Shown here one piece after another: positions 24,466-50,171 of a stretch of DNA of 64,000 bases. The position numbers and the translations under genes were made by a program. The stretch is from IMG/VR virus record IMGVR_UViG_3300045003_000080, positions 32,001 to 96,000 of that record; one strand, written 5' to 3'. The notes under the pieces are model-generated. The model worked only from the letters and a program-made list of their open reading frames with translations, did no database searches and was not told the origin of the DNA. Source of the stretch: a virus. How positions within the stretch are numbered: position 1 is the first letter of the stretch; every line of letters begins with the position of its first letter.

Positions 24466-26274
24466 GTGACCGTTACGTACGACGCCCCGTCGCCACAAGC
24501 GGTGACGGCCGGGCTGGTGGCTGACGCCTCCAACTTCGAAACCCCGAACCAGATGCTCGCCGGTAAGATGCCGGCGCTTGTCAAGGGCATGGGATACGCC
24601 CGCCCAGGCGGGAACGCCATCACCCAGGACGACGACAAGATTTTCCAGCAGTCGATGCGCGCCGAGATGGCGCTCACCAAGGCTGTTCGGACTGGTCTGA
24701 ATGATCCACAGTCAGTTATCAAGGGCCTGTCTCCGGACTTCTCGAACCAGTTCGGCGCGTTCCTGAGCAACACCCCGCAAAATTACGCGATGCAGAACAT
24801 GCTCGGGCAGCTGTCCGGGCAGATCAGCGACTTCATCGGCCGTAGCATCACCCTGACGAGCCCACTTTCGACCGGACTTGTCCCTTTTGACCTCGTTGCC
24901 CCTTCGAGGTTGATCTATCCTGTATATTCGCCTATTCGCAACAAACTCCCACGTGTTCCTGGCCAGGGCACGTCGCGCCGGACCAAGGTGCTCACCGGCA
25001 TCTCCGGCAGCCAGACTGGTGCTTCTGGCGGTAAGTTCCTCGACCTGGGCATCCCGGAGCTTGTCTCCAACACGTCCAGCATGCAGAACTGGCCATTGAA
25101 CCTCCCCGGAACCGGTGTTCAAGACTCTCTAGACCTGAATGTTCCTTACCGTTTTTGGGGACTTACTGAAAGTTTGTCCTGGCTTGCCCAGTTTGCGGGT
25201 CAAGGGTTTGAGGATATTTCAGCCCTTGCTAATCTCATCCTGCTTCAGGAGTTCATGCTCAGCGAGGAGGCCGCGCACCTCGCAGCCACCTCCACGAACC
25301 TGGGCACCCCAAGCAACCCGACGCTGACCGCACGGTCAGCGAACTCCGGCGAGACCGCATTGTCGGGCGTTACCACCAACGTGTTCGTCAAGGTGAGTGC
25401 GCTCAACTGGTTCGGTGAGACCGCGACCCAGGCGTCCGGCGCATCCGTCGCCTGGTCGTCCGGCCAGGTCGTGGACGTCGCGATCTCCCCAGTCGCTGGC
25501 GCGATGTGGTACCGGATTTATGTCACCACTGGTGCATCGGCAGGTACGTACTACCTGATGCAGGACAACGTCGGGGGCTTGAACTTCACGCTCCAGGGCG
25601 CGCTGCCAACGTCCGGCACCAACCCGGCGACGGGTGACACCGGCACCGGCAACGGCAACCGGCAGGAAGGCATCATCCCGGTTGTCGCCGGCCACTCGCA
25701 GGGCTCCAACCAGGTGTACCCGGCCAACTGGCAGGGTGGTTACATCAACCAGGCGCTCGGCGACACCCTCCACATCACGAACATCAACACGATGTTGCAG
25801 GGCTTGTGGGATGGCGTGGGCAGCTTCCGTGCCGACCCGGTCGAGCTGATCGGCGAGGGCGGCGACCTGATGCGCCTGAGCAACGACATTGTGCAGTCTG
25901 GTACGACCACTGCTTACCGTCTGTTCATTGAGCAGGCTGACGTGGCCGGAGTCCGGGCCGGGGCAGCCGTGTCGGAGTTCCAGAACCCGATCACTCGCAG
26001 CATGGTCAAGCTGTTGGTTCACCCGTGGCTGCCTCAGGGCACCCTGCTCGCGATGAGCTACACGCTCCCGTTCGCGTGGAGCAACGTCGCGAACGTGTGG
26101 GAGTTCGTCACGGTCCAGGACTATTTGTCCATTTCGTGGCCTGTAGTGGATGCGTCCTTTAGGTACAGCATGTTTATGTATGGGGCACTTGTGGCGAACG
26201 CCCCGCAATATTGCGGGATCCTTCAGGGCATTCAGAAGTCTGACCGTTCCGGCTCGACCGGCACCTGGTCGTAA
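24466..26274 (+). CDS. Major capsid protein with inserted FN3/Ig-like domain
   Basis: Position after protease; PIRNKLPRVPG, VHPWLPQG; followed by hairpin. Confidence 0.88.
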   Translation: MTVTYDAPSPQAVTAGLVADASNFETPNQMLAGKMPALVKGMGYARPGGNAITQDDDKIFQQSMRAEMALTKAVRTGLNDPQSVIKGLSPDFSNQFGAFLSNTPQNYAMQNMLGQLSGQISDFIGRSITLTSPLSTGLVPFDLVAPSRLIYPVYSPIRNKLPRVPGQGTSRRTKVLTGISGSQTGASGGKFLDLGIPELVSNTSSMQNWPLNLPGTGVQDSLDLNVPYRFWGLTESLSWLAQFAGQGFEDISALANLILLQEFMLSEEAAHLAATSTNLGTPSNPTLTARSANSGETALSGVTTNVFVKVSALNWFGETATQASGASVAWSSGQVVDVAISPVAGAMWYRIYVTTGASAGTYYLMQDNVGGLNFTLQGALPTSGTNPATGDTGTGNGNRQEGIIPVVAGHSQGSNQVYPANWQGGYINQALGDTLHITNINTMLQGLWDGVGSFRADPVELIGEGGDLMRLSNDIVQSGTTTAYRLFIEQADVAGVRAGAAVSEFQNPITRSMVKLLVHPWLPQGTLLAMSYTLPFAWSNVANVWEFVTVQDYLSISWPVVDASFRYSMFMYGALVANAPQYCGILQGIQKSDRSGSTGTWS

Positions 26275-45559: not shown

Positions 45560-46045
45560 GTGACTGACGCTGTCCATATCGAGCGCCGCACTCTTCATGA
45601 GGCGGTCGCCTATCCGCCACATGCCCCCCGTGAAACGGATCCGCACTATGGCGTCTTCCGTCACGCCCAACACCACCTCATCCACGTGCTCGGTGTGCCG
45701 TGCTGGATCGGTGGGGCGACGCTGGCGCAGATCAAAGCCGGGCTGTCGCCAGCCCATCGCTGCCACGGGGCGACGCAACTCGAAGCGCATCACGCAGTCG
45801 CCGAGTTCGCTGGCCTTTCGGAGATCGACTGGCAGAAGGTCGCCAAGGACTTTCCATTAGCAGGGATCCATTCCGACGAGGATTTCCTGAATTTCGCAGA
45901 GTCGGAGGGCGGCCTCATGATCATATGCGACAAGCATCATCGCGGGCCGAATCACGGAATTCATGCCATTACGTACCCGGCGTGGCTGCTCGACCGGTAC
46001 GCCCGCGACGACTACGAGTTCCTACCCGATCCGGCCGCCACGTGA
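45560..46045 (+). CDS. HNH-like protein
   Basis: LEAHH...IICDKHHRG...GIH. Confidence 0.65.
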   Translation: MTDAVHIERRTLHEAVAYPPHAPRETDPHYGVFRHAQHHLIHVLGVPCWIGGATLAQIKAGLSPAHRCHGATQLEAHHAVAEFAGLSEIDWQKVAKDFPLAGIHSDEDFLNFAESEGGLMIICDKHHRGPNHGIHAITYPAWLLDRYARDDYEFLPDPAAT

Positions 46046-46407
46046 ATCTTTTGCGTCGGCTGCCCCGGTGGTTGCGTGTCGCGTTGCTCGGCGCGAATTT
46101 CGCGGCGTCGCTCGGGGTGCTGGTCAACTGGTGGCTGGCCGTGTGGCCGAATCTGGCGGCAGCCTGGTTTCAGACCTCTGCGATAGTCGCGCTCGCGATG
46201 CCGCTCAGTGTGTGGGTTGGGCGCGTGCTCGACACCCATCACGACCGGGTGGCGGCGCACCAGGAACGCGAGCACGCGGCGACACGGCAGCACGTGGAGG
46301 AGCGGCTGGCCACGCACGCTGCTGCACACGACGAACGCATGGCAGTGATCTCCGACCAGATCGCGGCGTTGCACGCGAAGCTCGACCAGCCGGGAGGTAC
46401 GCCGTGA
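46042..46407 (+). CDS. Membrane protein (holin candidate)
   Basis: Two TM segments plus helical tail; coupled to endolysin. Confidence 0.65.
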   Translation: MNLLRRLPRWLRVALLGANFAASLGVLVNWWLAVWPNLAAAWFQTSAIVALAMPLSVWVGRVLDTHHDRVAAHQEREHAATRQHVEERLATHAAAHDERMAVISDQIAALHAKLDQPGGTP

Positions 46408-47450
46408 CCGTCACCTTTGGGATCGATATCGCGTCGTACGAGGCGGGGGAGGTGCTCAGCGAGGTCCATAGCGAGGGGTTCACTTTCGCGTATGTGAAAG
46501 CGACTCAGGGCACGAGCTACGTTGACCCGTACTTCGCGGGGTGGGCGGCCGGCCCAGGCGGCCTGATCTTCATCCCGTACCACTACGTCACCACCGAGGA
46601 CCCGGGGGCGCAGGCACGGTTCTTCCGGAGCGTTGCCGGGCCGGTGCCGGCAGTGATGCTCGACGTGGAGCAGGGCGCGCCCACGACCGGCGCCGGGGTG
46701 CTCGCGGTGATCGACGCGTTCACGGTGCTCGGCTACGTCGTCGACGTGTATCTGCCTCGCTGGTACTGGGCGCAGATCGGGTCACCCGATATGACGACGT
46801 GGCCGGTGCGTAACCTCATCGCCAGCGACTACCCGAGCACCCAATCGGGGTACGCCTTCGACCTGTACCCGGGCGACGACTACAAGGGGTGGGCGGCGTA
46901 CGGGAACAAGACGCCGGCGATTCTACAGTTCACCGACGCCGCCAAGGTGGGCGGGCAGCTCGTCGACGCGAACGCCGCGTCAGCGTCGGCGCGGTTCCTG
47001 ACCCTACCGCCACCAGCGCCCCCGGTCGTCTCCGACGTGCCCCCCGGGTGGGCGGCAACCGTCGCGACGGTGCAGGCGCAGCTCAACCGGTGGCCGTTTT
47101 CTCCGGTGCTCGTCGTCGACGACGTGCTGGGCCCGAAAACTGACGCAGCCGTCAGGGTGTTTCAACACGCAGCCGGGATCACCGTGGACGGGATCGCCGG
47201 CCCGCAAACCGTGCGCCGGGTCACCGCCTGGTACGACCCGACCCGGCCACCCCTACAGCAGGGCGCGACCGGGTCGGCTGTGTCGTGGTTGCAGGCGGAG
47301 CTGAACCGGACGATCAGCGCCGGGCTCGTCGTTGACGGCGTGTTCGGACCCGTGACGCTTGCAGAAGTCGACCGTTTCCAGGCGGTGCGGGGCCTGGTCG
47401 CCGACGGGCTCGTTGGCCGCATCACAAACGCTGCCGTGCAGATCCCTTAG
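46404..47450 (+). CDS. Endolysin: GH25 muramidase plus two PG-binding domains
   Basis: GIDIASY, YVKATQG, LDVE, ILQFT; DG..GP.T repeats. Confidence 0.93.
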   Translation: MTVTFGIDIASYEAGEVLSEVHSEGFTFAYVKATQGTSYVDPYFAGWAAGPGGLIFIPYHYVTTEDPGAQARFFRSVAGPVPAVMLDVEQGAPTTGAGVLAVIDAFTVLGYVVDVYLPRWYWAQIGSPDMTTWPVRNLIASDYPSTQSGYAFDLYPGDDYKGWAAYGNKTPAILQFTDAAKVGGQLVDANAASASARFLTLPPPAPPVVSDVPPGWAATVATVQAQLNRWPFSPVLVVDDVLGPKTDAAVRVFQHAAGITVDGIAGPQTVRRVTAWYDPTRPPLQQGATGSAVSWLQAELNRTISAGLVVDGVFGPVTLAEVDRFQAVRGLVADGLVGRITNAAVQIP

Positions 47451-47471: not shown

Positions 47472-47921
47472 GTGCGTGGTCGTCGCCTGCAAGGGCTTGG
47501 ACACATCTTTCGGCAACAACCGTACGAGGTCGCGTTCGCGCTCGCGTGTTTGAGCGCGCTGTGGGCGTTGCGCGCAGGCAGTGGCTCGGGTGCGGTGGCC
47601 CGGGTCCTGCCGCATTGGGGTTTGGTCGCGACCGACCTGGTGCTCGCTGCTGGTGGCGCGTTGACCCTGTTCGGGCTGGTGGTGGCCGGGTCGACGCTTG
47701 ATGATGTGCGCCGGGTTCTGGGGCGCCGGGTGGAGCAGGGCGGCCAGTTCCTGATCGCGGGTGTGTTCGCGGCGACGGCGATCGTGGTGTATTCGCTCGG
47801 GTCGGTCGGCACGGTCCCGGGTGCGGTGTATACGGCGCTCGCTGCTGCGTCGGCGACCCGGGCTGCGATGATCGGGCACACGTTCGCGCAGGCCGGCCGG
47901 GATCGGACGGACCTGGGATGA
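47472..47921 (+). CDS. 4-TM membrane protein (holin candidate)
   Basis: GGGAGG RBS; hydrophobic helices. Confidence 0.7.
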   Translation: MRGRRLQGLGHIFRQQPYEVAFALACLSALWALRAGSGSGAVARVLPHWGLVATDLVLAAGGALTLFGLVVAGSTLDDVRRVLGRRVEQGGQFLIAGVFAATAIVVYSLGSVGTVPGAVYTALAAASATRAAMIGHTFAQAGRDRTDLG

Positions 47922-48352
47922 ACGCCACAGAGTTGAGCGCCTATGCGGCGCTGATCCTTGCGGTTGTGAGCGCCACGATGAGTGTGTATAGGGGTTGGCG
48001 TAAACGGATTCAGGACGCTGCTCAGCAGCCTTTTTTGGTGGGTAACGCGGCGATCGAGGAAGCGCAGACGGCTTTACGCCTTAAGAATGACAGGTTGGCG
48101 GAACTCACCGAGTCGGAGGCGCGGCTGCGTGTCGCCCTGGCGGAGGCGAAAGGGACGGCTGAGGCGCAGCAGCAGCAGATCGTCGAACTCCAGTCGCGGC
48201 TGTACCAGGTGGATGCGACGAACCGGGAGTTGCAGGTGCGGGCGGAGGCGGCTGAGCGTCGGGAGCAGGAGCAGGTGTCGCGTATCGCGACGTTGGAGCG
48301 TGATATCGCGGATTTGCGGGTGAAGCTCGCGCTGCAGAACCCGGGCTACTGA
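47918..48352 (+). CDS. TM-anchored coiled-coil lysis accessory protein
   Basis: N-terminal TM then long heptad pattern. Confidence 0.7.
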   Translation: MNATELSAYAALILAVVSATMSVYRGWRKRIQDAAQQPFLVGNAAIEEAQTALRLKNDRLAELTESEARLRVALAEAKGTAEAQQQQIVELQSRLYQVDATNRELQVRAEAAERREQEQVSRIATLERDIADLRVKLALQNPGY

Positions 48353-48377
48353 GCACGCTGTAAGTGGGCTGGTTACC

Positions 48378-48401
48378 GTGCCGGGGCCGTAGCCCCGGCA
48401 C
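48378..48401. terminator. Hairpin between late operon and array B
   Basis: GTGCCGGGGC-CGTA-GCCCCGGCAC. Confidence 0.7.
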
Positions 48402-48405
48402 CCCT

Positions 48406-48490
48406 GCCAAGCCGTGCCCGGCCATGCCCCGCCAAGCCGCGCCGCGCTCTGCCGAGCCCAGTCCTGCCACGCTGGGGCGGGCCCCGCCAC
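48406..48490 (-). repeat. 5-nt-period array B, 17 units (GGY-NN on minus strand); candidate guide RNA
   Basis: Plus strand gccaa gccgt gcccg gccat gcccc gccaa gccgc gccgc gctct gccga gccca gtcct gccac gctgg ggcgg gcccc gccac. Confidence 0.9.
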
Positions 48491-48511
48491 GTCGCGATCT
48501 AGTGCACTCAC

Positions 48512-48540
48512 ATTGTACTAACGTGCGTGGCCATGTTCAG
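48512..48540 (-). promoter_or_regulatory. Promoter candidate for array B
   Basis: Minus-strand TACAAT (48517-48512); CTGAAC 17 nt upstream. Confidence 0.55.
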
Positions 48541-49085
48541 ACCCTCTGATCAAAGCGTGTTTCAAGGCGTTCGAGCCGGGCCAGGATCTCGGTGCGTTCT
48601 TCGGCTGTGCGCTCGTTTTCGCCTCGGATCGCGGTGACTGCCGTTTCGAGGTTTCGCTGGCGGACGTCCAGGCTGCGAATGGCGTCAGCCTGACGCTGGA
48701 ATGCGGCAGCCACTACTTCCAGTAGGTTACGCACTCCCGGGTCGGCCCCCGTTAGGTCGACCCGGGTAGCGACTTCGTGTCCTTCGCGAACTGCAAGGGC
48801 GGCGCGGCCTTGTTGCTTGCGGGCGAGCCGTAGGTGACCTACCGCGTCGACGACGCGGTATCCCTTGTCACGTACAACCTCTATCGCGTGGTGGTCCTGT
48901 TGTAACAACTCCCGTTTGGCCCGGCGCATCGGCCCTTGGATCGTGGGCCGGTCCCGAATTGGGTCCACGCCCAGAGCATCCCCGAGCGCCTCGTAACTCA
49001 GCACCTCGTTGACAGGAGTCTCTCGCAGAAGGTCATAGATGATGCGCCAACGCGCCAGCTCCCCGGTGGCTTGGAACGGGGACAT
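48537..49085 (-). CDS. Winged-HTH plus coiled-coil protein, partner of RAMP-like gene
   Basis: TGATG coupling; LSYEALGDALG...VVRDKGYRVV. Confidence 0.8.
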   Translation of the reverse strand: MSPFQATGELARWRIIYDLLRETPVNEVLSYEALGDALGVDPIRDRPTIQGPMRRAKRELLQQDHHAIEVVRDKGYRVVDAVGHLRLARKQQGRAALAVREGHEVATRVDLTGADPGVRNLLEVVAAAFQRQADAIRSLDVRQRNLETAVTAIRGENERTAEERTEILARLERLETRFDQRV

Positions 49086-49675
49086 CACCGGTACTCGATT
49101 TCCGCCACGTAGGTGCCATTCTGTGGGCGCCAGTCGCCCAGTCCCACGTAAGCGCCAGCAGTGTCGGCGATGCGCTCGATTTCGTGCTTGTCAAGGACGG
49201 ACGGATCGAACTGGCCCTCGACGTCGGTCGCCCACTGCGAGAAGCGGGCGCGGCATCGAACGGTCCGTGCGCTGTTGACTTTCACCACCTTGACGAACCG
49301 GAAGTTCTCGTTTTCCCAGAGCTTTTCAGGGTCGCGCGACCCAGGGTACGAAATCGGGTTGACGACGGTGTTGATCAGAAGGCCCGCCTTGACCTTCTCG
49401 CCTAGCTTGTGTTTCTTCGCGCCGTCGTAGAGCGAGCGCCATATGTTTTCCCCCGGCAGGTATGGGCCAGCGTCCGGGTCAGTGTAGAGCGAGCCTAAGA
49501 ACTCAAGGTAGGCGATCTCCTCGTAGTTTTCCTCAGTCTTCGACCGCTTTGACGTGCGGGCTTTAAGCGCCTTCGCGGCCGGGTCGAGGGGGTTGGCGAG
49601 TCGGCCATTGTGCATCAGGAGCTGGCGCGTGCCTTCAATGTGGAGCGTGAATTTCTGCGTTTGGAATGTGTGCAT
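49085..49675 (-). CDS. Stand-alone Cas7/RAMP-like protein (196 aa)
   Basis: FTLHIEGTRQLLMHN, PYLPGENIWRSL (cf. Csm3/Cas7 PYIPGSSLKG), C-terminal Gly loop GLGDWRPQNGTY. Confidence 0.75.
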   Translation of the reverse strand: MHTFQTQKFTLHIEGTRQLLMHNGRLANPLDPAAKALKARTSKRSKTEENYEEIAYLEFLGSLYTDPDAGPYLPGENIWRSLYDGAKKHKLGEKVKAGLLINTVVNPISYPGSRDPEKLWENENFRFVKVVKVNSARTVRCRARFSQWATDVEGQFDPSVLDKHEIERIADTAGAYVGLGDWRPQNGTYVAEIEYR

Positions 49676-49703
49676 GGGTGAGCCATTCGTCGGGATTAGT
49701 GTT

Positions 49704-49808
49704 GCCCCGCCTTGCCAAGCCACGCTAAGCCGGACCTTGTTCTGCCAAGCCGAGCCTAGCCGTGCCTAACCTAGCCGGGCCGGGCGTTGCCTGGCCAGGC
49801 CGCGCCAG
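49704..49808 (-). repeat. 5-nt-period array A, 21 units (GGY-NN on minus strand); candidate guide RNA
   Basis: Plus strand gcccc gcctt gccaa gccac gctaa gccgg acctt gttct gccaa gccga gccta gccgt gccta accta gccgg gccgg gcgtt gcctg gccag gccgc gccag. Confidence 0.92.
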
Positions 49809-49839
49809 GTGCTGCCCACCAGAGCTGTGGGCTAGAAAG

Positions 49840-49868
49840 ACGATAGCGTGGACCGTTTGTTCATGCAA
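49840..49868 (-). promoter_or_regulatory. Promoter for array A and RAMP operon
   Basis: Minus-strand TTGCAT-N17-TATCGT. Confidence 0.6.
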
Positions 49869-49973
49869 ACACGTAGATAAATCATCTGATAATACAGCGC
49901 GATGTTGAGTAGAACGGCAATGCATTGTTTTGCTGGGTGGTGCGAGTGATCCACATGTGTTTACAATAAGCAC

Positions 49974-50171
49974 ATGGATACTATTGTCACGCGGCGCAGT
50001 GGCACTCCCGACGAAGCCGTCGAGGTCGCCATGTTCTCCGACGGTGTCGCTTTGCTCGACACGAAACAGGGCGGCTCGGGTGCGCTGTGGTTTAACCCCG
50101 CCACGTTCGCCCAGTTCGTCCGCGACGTTAAAGAAGGCAAATACGATCCGGTTCCGTCCGTTAATGGCTAA
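49974..50171 (+). CDS. DUF397 (BldB-like) protein
   Basis: RRS...VEVA...VALLDTK...L.F....F..FV..VK.G; ATG 6 nt after TACAAT. Confidence 0.8.
   Translation: MDTIVTRRSGTPDEAVEVAMFSDGVALLDTKQGGSGALWFNPATFAQFVRDVKEGKYDPVPSVNG

What the first reader, a model, noticed from the sequence alone, without database searches (positions are those of the whole stretch)
48378..48540. Array B looks like a stand-alone small RNA whose NN series reads as codon positions 1-2 of a protein
Seen: TACAAT about 20 nt upstream on the minus strand and a 10-bp hairpin just downstream define a roughly 130-nt transcript. Plus-strand dinucleotides in order are AA GT CG AT CC AA GC GC CT GA CA CT AC GG GG CC AC. Inference: if one target base is skipped after each pair, the target is AAnGTnCGnATnCCnAAnGCnGCnCTnGAnCAnCTnACnGGnGGnCCnAC. 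Read as codons this is [K/N]VR[I/M]P[K/N]AAL[D/E][H/Q]LTGGPT, with no possible stop and resembling the RIPxxAL end of excisionase-type HTH proteins. Skipping the wobble base would make targeting insensitive to synonymous escape. I saw no match by eye within this window.
Basis: inference. Interest (0 to 1): 0.8.

Follow-up and report, generated by a model that had tools for sequence, protein, structure and literature searches.

The report
Phage VIPR guide RNA gene

Summary
Array B is real. It has 17 NNGGY units on the minus strand (48406-48490), 13 with canonical GGY. A TGAACA-N16-TACAAT promoter-like site precedes it and AGGGG plus a 10-bp UACG-capped hairpin follows it. With array A it encloses two minus-strand genes. 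The first is a Vipr protein: profile E 5.9e-58 to PDB 36pp 'SUSP1 Vipr protein', a Csm3/Cas7-like fold, and all 8 published RNA/DNA-contact residues conserved. The second is a winged-helix-like accessory protein.

This is a VIPR locus as described in 2026 preprints: GGY/NN vrRNA, one target base skipped per NN, skipped base usually at the wobble position.

Its own test did not pass. I found no target above background in the phage's own genome, IMG/VR, GTDB species genomes, JGI metagenomes or 401 genomes of the family of a Streptomyces hit. These searches were limited to exact seeds and the host is unknown.

This scan has already noted VIPR in at least 477 other genomes. Verdict: an ordinary new member of a known kind.

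The parts
48534..48539 (-). Candidate -35 hexamer TGAACA; it overlaps the vap stop codon
   Evidence: TGAACA-N16-TACAAT, 9 of 12.
48512..48517 (-). Candidate -10 hexamer TACAAT of the array B vrRNA
   Evidence: This is a consensus match only; the transcription start (about 48505) is inferred.
48491..48505 (-). Inferred short 5' leader before the first repeat
   Evidence: inference from the -10 position.
48406..48490 (-). vrRNA repeat tract (array B): 17 NNGGY units, 13 with canonical GGY. Units 10-17, next to the tail, are all canonical.
48378..48405 (-). vrRNA 3' tail: AGGGG, then a 10-bp GC-rich hairpin with a UACG loop (48401-48378). It lies 26 nt past the stop of the convergent + strand gene 47918-48352.
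   Evidence: 'RGGG + hairpin' tails also follow arrays in L005, L031, L032 and L034. There is a sub-threshold Rfam CRISPR-DR29 match (26.3 bits against a gathering score of 39).
48537..49088 (-). vap (vipr-accessory protein), 183 aa: N-terminal winged-helix-like domain plus long C-terminal helices. Its start overlaps the vipr stop.
49085..49675 (-). vipr, 196 aa, a RAMP (Cas7/Csm3-like) protein
49704..49818 (-). Upstream repeat tract (array A): 23 units, 19 canonical. It ends 28 nt before the vipr ATG and has no hairpin tail.

Best explanation
Array B is the gene of a VIPR guide RNA (vrRNA) of a soil phage with 65% G+C.

Shown: the locus has the published VIPR parts. These are a Vipr RAMP protein, an accessory DNA-binding-type protein (vap), and GGY/NN pentamer tracts on the same strand upstream and downstream of the genes.

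Inferred from the family: the RNA is made from its own promoter or cut from the vipr-vap transcript. Vipr protomers polymerise along it, one per repeat, starting near the 3' hairpin tail. Each GGY is flipped into the protein and each NN is presented. The filament binds double-stranded DNA whose sequence matches the NN series with one base skipped after each pair, and it silences transcription there. The likely target is a gene of a competing phage, prophage or satellite, read at codon positions 1-2. Which gene that is remains unknown.
For: Vipr identity. A profile of 43 homologues hits PDB 36pp 'SUSP1 Vipr protein' at E 5.9e-58 over 189 of 191 positions. The single sequence hits it at E 6.8e-31. 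The AlphaFold model has pLDDT 96.1. Foldseek returns 86 PDB chains at E<=0.001, and the top ones are Csm3/Cas7 RAMPs. All 8 residues that the cryo-EM paper names for GGY, skip-base and non-target-strand contacts are conserved: H17/K33/R39/K82/R138/D177/W178/R179 correspond to H22/K38/R44/K87/R142/D181/W182/R183 (alignment, residues).

Arrays. All 22 related loci examined (6 GenBank phages, 16 IMG/VR contigs) carry NNGGY tracts next to vipr on the gene's strand, and the NN differ among them.

Tail, vap and self-targeting. The array is followed by a tail of the 'RGGG + hairpin' kind. Vap has full-length relatives beside vipr in 7 IMG/VR loci (36-50% identity) and in Gordonia phage MakoManhole (E 3e-10, annotated 'DNA binding protein'). 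The model shows a winged-helix-like N-terminal domain. There is no self-target in the phage genome, as the discovery paper reports for its own guides.

Mechanism. This comes from the papers read.
Against: No target was found for this guide at the 1-nt skip in any search. The reversed-pattern control gave a similar number of hits: 7 against 12.

Four of 17 units have a degenerate GGY (GCC, AGC, GAC, AGC). Seventeen units exceeds the 9-16 stated in the paper, so the 5' third may be decayed or not part of the guide.

The tail is a plain hairpin, not the SUSP1 pseudoknot. No U-tract follows it and the terminator scan finds nothing. The RNA as a whole folds no better than shuffles (z -1.42). Expression and ends are untested, because no RNA run was listed.

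The window's Vipr is only about 34% identical to SUSP1-type proteins, so transferring the 1-nt rule is an inference. The paper does apply the rule across types III and V.
Confidence: 0.85

Rival explanations
1. Array B is a decaying or orphaned vrRNA gene. It still looks like a guide but no longer directs silencing of anything, or only its eight 3'-proximal units do.
For: 4 of 17 units have a degenerate GGY, all within the 5' nine units. No target was found. Bases 3-15 of the tract can pair as a small hairpin, by my reading, and part of this appears in the MFE structure.
Against: The discovery paper states that internal degeneracy of vrRNAs is frequent. The eight units next to the tail are all canonical. 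In SUSP1 the subunits nearest the 3' end (8-12) were resolved in every class. A promoter-like site is kept. The failed target search is weak evidence because the host is unknown and the searches needed exact seeds.
Confidence: 0.1
2. Array B is a decoy or competitor vrRNA. It loads Vipr, its own or a rival's, and diverts it to harmless or repeated sites rather than silencing a rival gene, as shown for satellite solo vrRNAs in E. coli.
For: The third preprint shows satellite-encoded vrRNAs that redirect Vipr to host REP elements (abstract and passages). No gene target was found here.
Against: This RNA sits inside a complete vipr-vap locus, not solo. No repeated host or phage sequence matching it was found, though no host genome is known.
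Confidence: 0.04
3. The tract is not an RNA gene. It would be a DNA-level element (protein-binding iterons with half-turn spacing), or merely a GC-rich spacer and bidirectional terminator between convergent genes.
For: The hairpin lies 26 nt after the stop of the convergent + strand gene. The 5-bp period equals half a helical turn (my inference). This was my first thought, along with a TRAP-like RNA-binding ring.
Against: The strand-specific NNGGY tract next to vipr is conserved in 22 of 22 loci across Actinobacteria-, Pseudomonas- and Escherichia-type phages while NN varies. For the homologous SUSP1 locus, small-RNA sequencing and co-purification show that the tracts are RNAs bound by Vipr.
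Confidence: 0.01

Closest known systems
Type II VIPR system of Escherichia phage SUSP1 (Vipr + vap1 + vrRNAs; PDB 36pp; bioRxiv 10.64898/2026.04.26.720920 and .720927)
   Same: Homologous Vipr with all 8 named contact residues. The layout is a two-gene vipr-vap operon with pentamer GGY/NN tracts upstream and downstream on the same strand, and a structured 3' tail after the tract. The system is phage-borne and has no self-target.
   Different: The Vipr proteins are only about 34% identical. GGY is GGC here rather than mostly GGT. There is one downstream vrRNA rather than three. The tract has 17 units. The tail is a bare 10-bp UACG hairpin instead of a pseudoknot. Vap is only weakly alignable to the SUSP1-type vap (E 0.03). 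The VIPR type could not be assigned, because the type tables are in supplements that are closed.
VIPR loci of actinobacterial phages (Gordonia phages MakoManhole and Trine, Mycobacterium phages LittleE and prophiBWHA-1, IMG/VR loci L019-L025)
   Same: These have the closest Vipr proteins (40-58% identity) and the same vap family. They use GGC-rich NNGGY tracts, and the upstream tract runs up to the vipr ribosome-binding region.
   Different: In 8 of those loci the tracts end in tRNA-like acceptor/T-arm minihelices: 20 elements, with 10 of 11 pairs showing compensatory changes. The window has none. Its only T-loop-like matches are in real tRNA genes or unrelated places.
Class 1 CRISPR-Cas backbone (Cas7/Csm3 filament on crRNA)
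   Same: RAMP fold with G-loop and thumb. The protein polymerises on a guide RNA and flips bases out periodically.
   Different: There is no CRISPR repeat-spacer array, no cas genes and no adaptation module. The guide information is split into dinucleotides with a 5-nt RNA period and a 3-nt DNA period. The Rfam CRISPR-DR29 match on the tail is below threshold.

Membership tests
VIPR system (Vipr + vrRNA) | An adjacent gene for a Vipr RAMP protein | tested here: met
   (E 5.9e-58 to PDB 36pp).
VIPR system (Vipr + vrRNA) | Residues that bind GGY (H17, R138, D177, W178, R179), the skip-base backbone (K33) and the non-target strand (R39, K82) | tested here: met
   8 of 8 are conserved in the alignment. 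H22, R142, D181 and R183 are invariant or at least 90% conserved among 43 homologues.
VIPR system (Vipr + vrRNA) | A tandem YNNGG/GGY-NN pentamer tract on the gene's strand. The paper requires at least 4 units for calling and reports 9-16 as typical, with GGY conserved and NN variable. | tested here: met
   17 units, 13 canonical. Enrichment is shown. NN differ among 22 related loci. The length is one unit above the stated range.
VIPR system (Vipr + vrRNA) | A structured, conserved 3' tail capping the tract | tested here: inconclusive
   AGGGG plus a 10-bp hairpin is present, and similar 'RGGG + hairpin' tails occur in L005, L031, L032 and L034. No close relative with the same tail was available to show conservation. 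The tail is not the SUSP1 pseudoknot.
VIPR system (Vipr + vrRNA) | A vap accessory gene next to vipr, predicted to bind DNA in types II, VI and VII | tested here: met
   A coupled 183-aa gene. Its homologues sit beside vipr in 8 other loci. The model shows a winged-helix-like domain, and the Foldseek rows are wHTH regulators, but all at E>=0.001. Pfam hits are below cut-off.
VIPR system (Vipr + vrRNA) | The tract is expressed as a roughly 100-nt RNA that co-purifies with Vipr | not testable with these tools
   No RNA run was listed.
VIPR system (Vipr + vrRNA) | A natural target obeying the 1-nt skip rule (at least 80% NN match) | tested here: not met
   Best matches were 22 of 36 in the own genome, 24 of 36 in the held loci and in IMG/VR, 26 of 34 (76%) in a Streptomyces genome and 25 of 34 in metagenomes. 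In 401 genomes of that Streptomyces hit's family there were 3 hits against 1 control hit. Coverage was limited to exact seeds of 16-24 read bases. In the paper only 20 of 41 SUSP1-clade vrRNAs had identifiable targets.
VIPR system (Vipr + vrRNA) | No self-targeting of the source contig | tested here: met
   at gaps 0, 1 and 2 all scores lie within the shuffled-NN null. The gap-3 hit is the array itself.
CRISPR-Cas | A repeat-spacer array and cas gene set | tested here: not met
   No Rfam CRISPR family reaches threshold. The tandem-repeat scan shows only the period-5/10/25 tract here. Only one RAMP gene is present.
TRAP-type RNA-binding attenuation (triplet repeats with 2-3 nt spacers wrapped on a protein ring) | A TRAP-fold ring protein and a leader tract regulating a downstream operon | tested here: not met
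   The neighbouring protein has a RAMP fold. The resemblance was recalled from memory and dropped.

The most novel reading that the evidence does not exclude
Array B is a working 17-unit guide with its own promoter and a minimal UNCG-hairpin tail. Its NN series reads codon positions 1-2 of an excisionase-type helix-turn-helix gene (…VRIPxxAL…) of a rival prophage or satellite of an actinobacterial host, so this phage would immobilise a competitor by RNA-guided silencing of its excision function. The E. coli satellite recombinase case would be its parallel. With the tRNA-like tails of its relatives, the hairpin tail would show that the vrRNA cap is freely exchangeable.
Probability: 0.15. Interest if true: 0.4.

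Novelty: new member of a known kind. Interest (0 to 1): 0.22.

Why it matters
The finding adds one more natural VIPR locus, in a 120-kb high-GC soil phage. The locus shows architectural variation: a GGC repeat, 17 units and a bare hairpin tail.

It also shows that a reader working from sequence alone arrived at the published one-base-skip, wobble-blind rule. The class, its mechanism and the escape-proofing argument are already in print as 2026 preprints, and this scan has met the class in at least 477 genomes. The practical value is therefore annotation, not discovery.

Tried and rejected
Early ideas, dropped. I considered a TRAP-like ring protein wrapping a triplet-repeat RNA, partition or iteron DNA sites for the wHTH protein, two-tier G-quadruplexes, and a Rho-utilisation tract.

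Target searches for array B at the 1-nt skip, all negative or at background. NN are numbered 5' to 3' on the RNA.
- Own genome, gaps 0-3, with 200 shuffled-NN nulls each.
- 229,519 bases of held loci, including 22 VIPR loci.
- IMG/VR NN7-18: 0 hits.
- IMG/VR NN10-17: 12 loci, best 24 of 36. The reversed-pattern control gave 7 loci.
- IMG/VR NN5-12: 54 loci. JGI metagenomes NN5-13: 22 loci. Together these gave 76 sites, best 25 of 34.
- JGI metagenomes NN8-17: 0 hits.
- GTDB genomes NN7-18: 0 hits.
- GTDB genomes NN9-17: 6 loci, best 26 of 34 in a Streptomyces contig. Six seed hits make one further matching dinucleotide unremarkable.
- 401 genomes of that Streptomyces hit's family, NN6-17 with up to 3 mismatches: 3 genomes against 1 for the control.
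I ran no public-collection controls at gaps 0, 2 or 3.

Array A. NN4-13 in IMG/VR gave 0 hits. The last 7 NN in the window gave 0 hits.

Reverse test. 58 guides from related loci scanned against this phage genome showed nothing clear. The best was 18 of 22 for a short guide.

Other negatives. No RNA holder was listed for 48300-49900, so expression was not examined. The papers' supplements are closed, so type tables, target lists and tail figures that may bear on type assignment and on tRNA-like tails were not seen.

Full report
**What is there.** The + strand at 48406-48490 is a run of 17 GCCNN pentamers. On the minus strand it reads NNGGC. Thirteen units carry a canonical GGY; units 3, 4, 6 and 9 have GCC, AGC, GAC and AGC. 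The periodic pattern is far above chance: 26 matches against 2.63 expected, with 0 of 100 shuffles as high. Ten of the matches lie in this array and 14 in a second array at 49704-49818. These are the only two arrays with 6 or more GGY units in the whole 119,829-base genome, which is 65% G+C, and both are on the minus strand.

A TGAACA-N16-TACAAT promoter-like site lies on the minus strand at 48539-48512, overlapping the stop codon of the upstream gene. After the last unit come AGGGG and a 10-bp hairpin, GUGCCGGGGC-UACG-GCCCCGGCAC, at 48401-48378. No T-run follows, and the terminator scan lists nothing. The roughly 130-nt transcript is an inference.

**Surroundings.** The window is phage DNA. 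It holds ten tRNA genes, an endolysin at 45963-47450, and the genome is held as a virus record. Between the two arrays lie two coupled minus-strand genes. The first is a 196-aa protein at 49085-49675 (phrog_4652, E 2.9e-51; no Pfam family). The second is a 183-aa protein at 48537-49088 with only weak winged-helix hits.

**Related loci.**
- tblastn finds the 196-aa protein in 128 phage records. They include Felixounavirus, Pseudomonas phages, Gordonia phages MakoManhole and Trine, and Mycobacterium phages LittleE and prophiBWHA-1.
- A protein search finds 105 relatives, none with a functional name.
- In all 22 related loci that I examined (6 GenBank phages and 16 IMG/VR contigs), NNGGY tracts lie beside the gene on its strand, and their NN differ.
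- In the AT-rich Escherichia phage wV8 the unit is NNGGT.

**Identity.** A profile of 43 homologues hits one PDB entry, 36pp 'SUSP1 Vipr protein', at E 5.9e-58. The single sequence hits it at E 6.8e-31. The AlphaFold model (pLDDT 96.1) matches Csm3/Cas7 RAMPs in Foldseek, with 86 chains at E<=0.001.

The literature search then found the VIPR preprints.
- From 10.64898/2026.04.26.720920 I read the Results, the Discussion and methods sections 20, 26 and 27.
- From 10.64898/2026.04.26.720927 I read Results part 1 and passages.
- From 10.64898/2026.10.15.759431 I read the abstract, outline and passages.
- From 10.64898/2026.10.21.760802 I read passages only.

These papers describe phage-borne loci of a Vipr RAMP, an accessory vap gene, and vrRNAs of 9-16 YNNGG repeats with a structured 3' tail. 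One Vipr protomer binds per repeat, GGY is sequestered, and NN pairs with DNA while every third target base is skipped. The skipped base usually falls on the wobble position, which blunts synonymous escape. Targets are competing phages, prophages and satellites, and binding silences transcription.

All 8 residues that the structure paper names are conserved here: H17, K33, R39, K82, R138, D177, W178 and R179 correspond to H22, K38, R44, K87, R142, D181, W182 and R183.

The 183-aa protein belongs to a family found beside vipr in 7 IMG/VR loci (36-50% identity) and in MakoManhole (E 3e-10). It models as a winged-helix-like domain followed by long helices. Structural matches are to wHTH regulators, but none is better than E 0.001. 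This fits the 'predicted DNA-binding' vap class. Homology to the SUSP1-type vap is not established (E 0.03).

**How it most likely works.** By membership in this family, array B is a vrRNA gene. Vipr would coat the RNA starting from the tail-proximal end; in SUSP1 the 3'-proximal subunits are always resolved. The eight units next to the tail are all canonical here. The 17 NN would specify a 50-bp DNA site read as NNx. These steps are inferred, not shown, for this locus.

I scored the NN series at gaps 0-3 on both strands against shuffled-NN nulls.
- In the phage's own genome the 1-nt-skip best is 22 of 36, against a null mean of 22.4. The only strong hit is the array itself at gap 3.
- The held loci, including rival VIPR loci, gave 24 of 36, inside the null range (maximum 25).

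Public collections allow exact patterns only, so I used seeds of 16-24 read bases and scored how far each hit extended.
- Two 24-base seeds and one 20-base seed gave 0 hits.
- The 16- and 18-base seeds gave 12, 54, 22 and 6 loci. None extended above background: the best were 24 of 36, 25 of 34 and 26 of 34.
- A reversed-pattern control gave 7 loci against 12 for the real pattern.
- In 401 genomes of the family of that Streptomyces hit, allowing up to 3 mismatches in 24 read bases, there were 3 hits against 1 for the control.
- Array A seeds also found nothing.

The host is unknown, the searches could not tolerate mismatches, and in the discovery paper only 20 of 41 SUSP1-clade vrRNAs had identifiable targets. 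The negative result is therefore weak. The resemblance of the decoded peptide to excisionase-type HTH proteins was not tested.

**Differences from the described systems.** The tract has 17 units, one above the stated range, and four are degenerate. The paper notes that internal degeneracy is frequent. The tail is a bare UACG-capped hairpin rather than a pseudoknot, and it also lies just downstream of the convergent gene's stop. The upstream array has no tail and runs to 28 nt before the vipr start. The VIPR type could not be assigned without the closed supplements.

**Novelty and score.** The class, the rule and the wobble argument are in print. This scan has noted VIPR in at least 477 other genomes, and first-reader notes on this genome already call the cassette a RAMP-plus-pentamer system. 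This is a new member of a known kind and of low interest.

Noticed in passing
L001 1648-1697, 2981-3030; L002 2245-2294, 2380-2429, 3701-3750, 3844-3893; L003 2376-2425; L004 3088-3137, 3209-3258, 3318-3367; L019, L020, L022, L023 (two to three each): In 8 related actinobacterial-type VIPR loci the pentamer tracts end in tRNA-like minihelices: an acceptor-like stem plus a GGTTCRANNCC T-arm. There are 20 elements, and 10 of 11 predicted pairs show compensatory changes. Before aligning I dropped 4 of 24 regex hits by eye because they lacked the stems. ARAGORN calls none of them a normal tRNA and Rfam lists none. 'tRNA' occurs 0 times in the main text of the three VIPR preprints, and 'tRNA-like' 0 times in the fourth paper. 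This scan has already noted such tails in at least 8 genomes. The window's own array has no such element.
   Followed up: partly
window 49676-49818 (minus strand); also L019, L020, L021, L024, L025, L029, L030, L033: The upstream tract (array A) ends 20-45 nt before the vipr start codon and has no hairpin tail, here and in 8 relatives. It would therefore lie in the vipr mRNA leader. Vipr binding there could feed back on its own translation. This is inference only.
   Followed up: no
L002 (Mycobacterium phage LittleE, record 24726-25888): The vipr-vap pair with its arrays sits in reverse orientation between the tape measure gene and tail genes. That looks like a self-contained inserted cassette.
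   Followed up: no
L006 2250-2307 and 3643-3700 (Escherichia phage wV8): The record's annotated direct repeats 'DR_4' flanking the gene pair coincide with the conserved vrRNA tails.
   Followed up: no
window 48368-48404 (minus strand): The tail hairpin gives a sub-threshold Rfam match to CRISPR-DR29: 26.3 bits against a gathering score of 39, E 0.0067. This is probably just a GC-rich hairpin.
   Followed up: no
L042 1150-1199 (Streptomyces sp. contig): This was the best partial 1-nt-skip match of array B: 26 of 34, with the ten tail-proximal NN exact. It is in frame with a 150-aa minus-strand ORF. It is below the 80% threshold and expected by chance among six seed hits.
   Followed up: partly
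window 49930-50171: A DUF397 gene (65 aa, Pfam E 2.7e-06) lies on the + strand just beyond array A, beside overlapping promoter-like sites on both strands at 49960-49990.
   Followed up: no
L031 4196-4300: A 15-nt periodic GCGGC-GCCGC-CGGGC run is picked up by my pentamer detector about 1.1 kb beyond vipr. It looks like a different (possibly coding) repeat, not a vrRNA.
   Followed up: no
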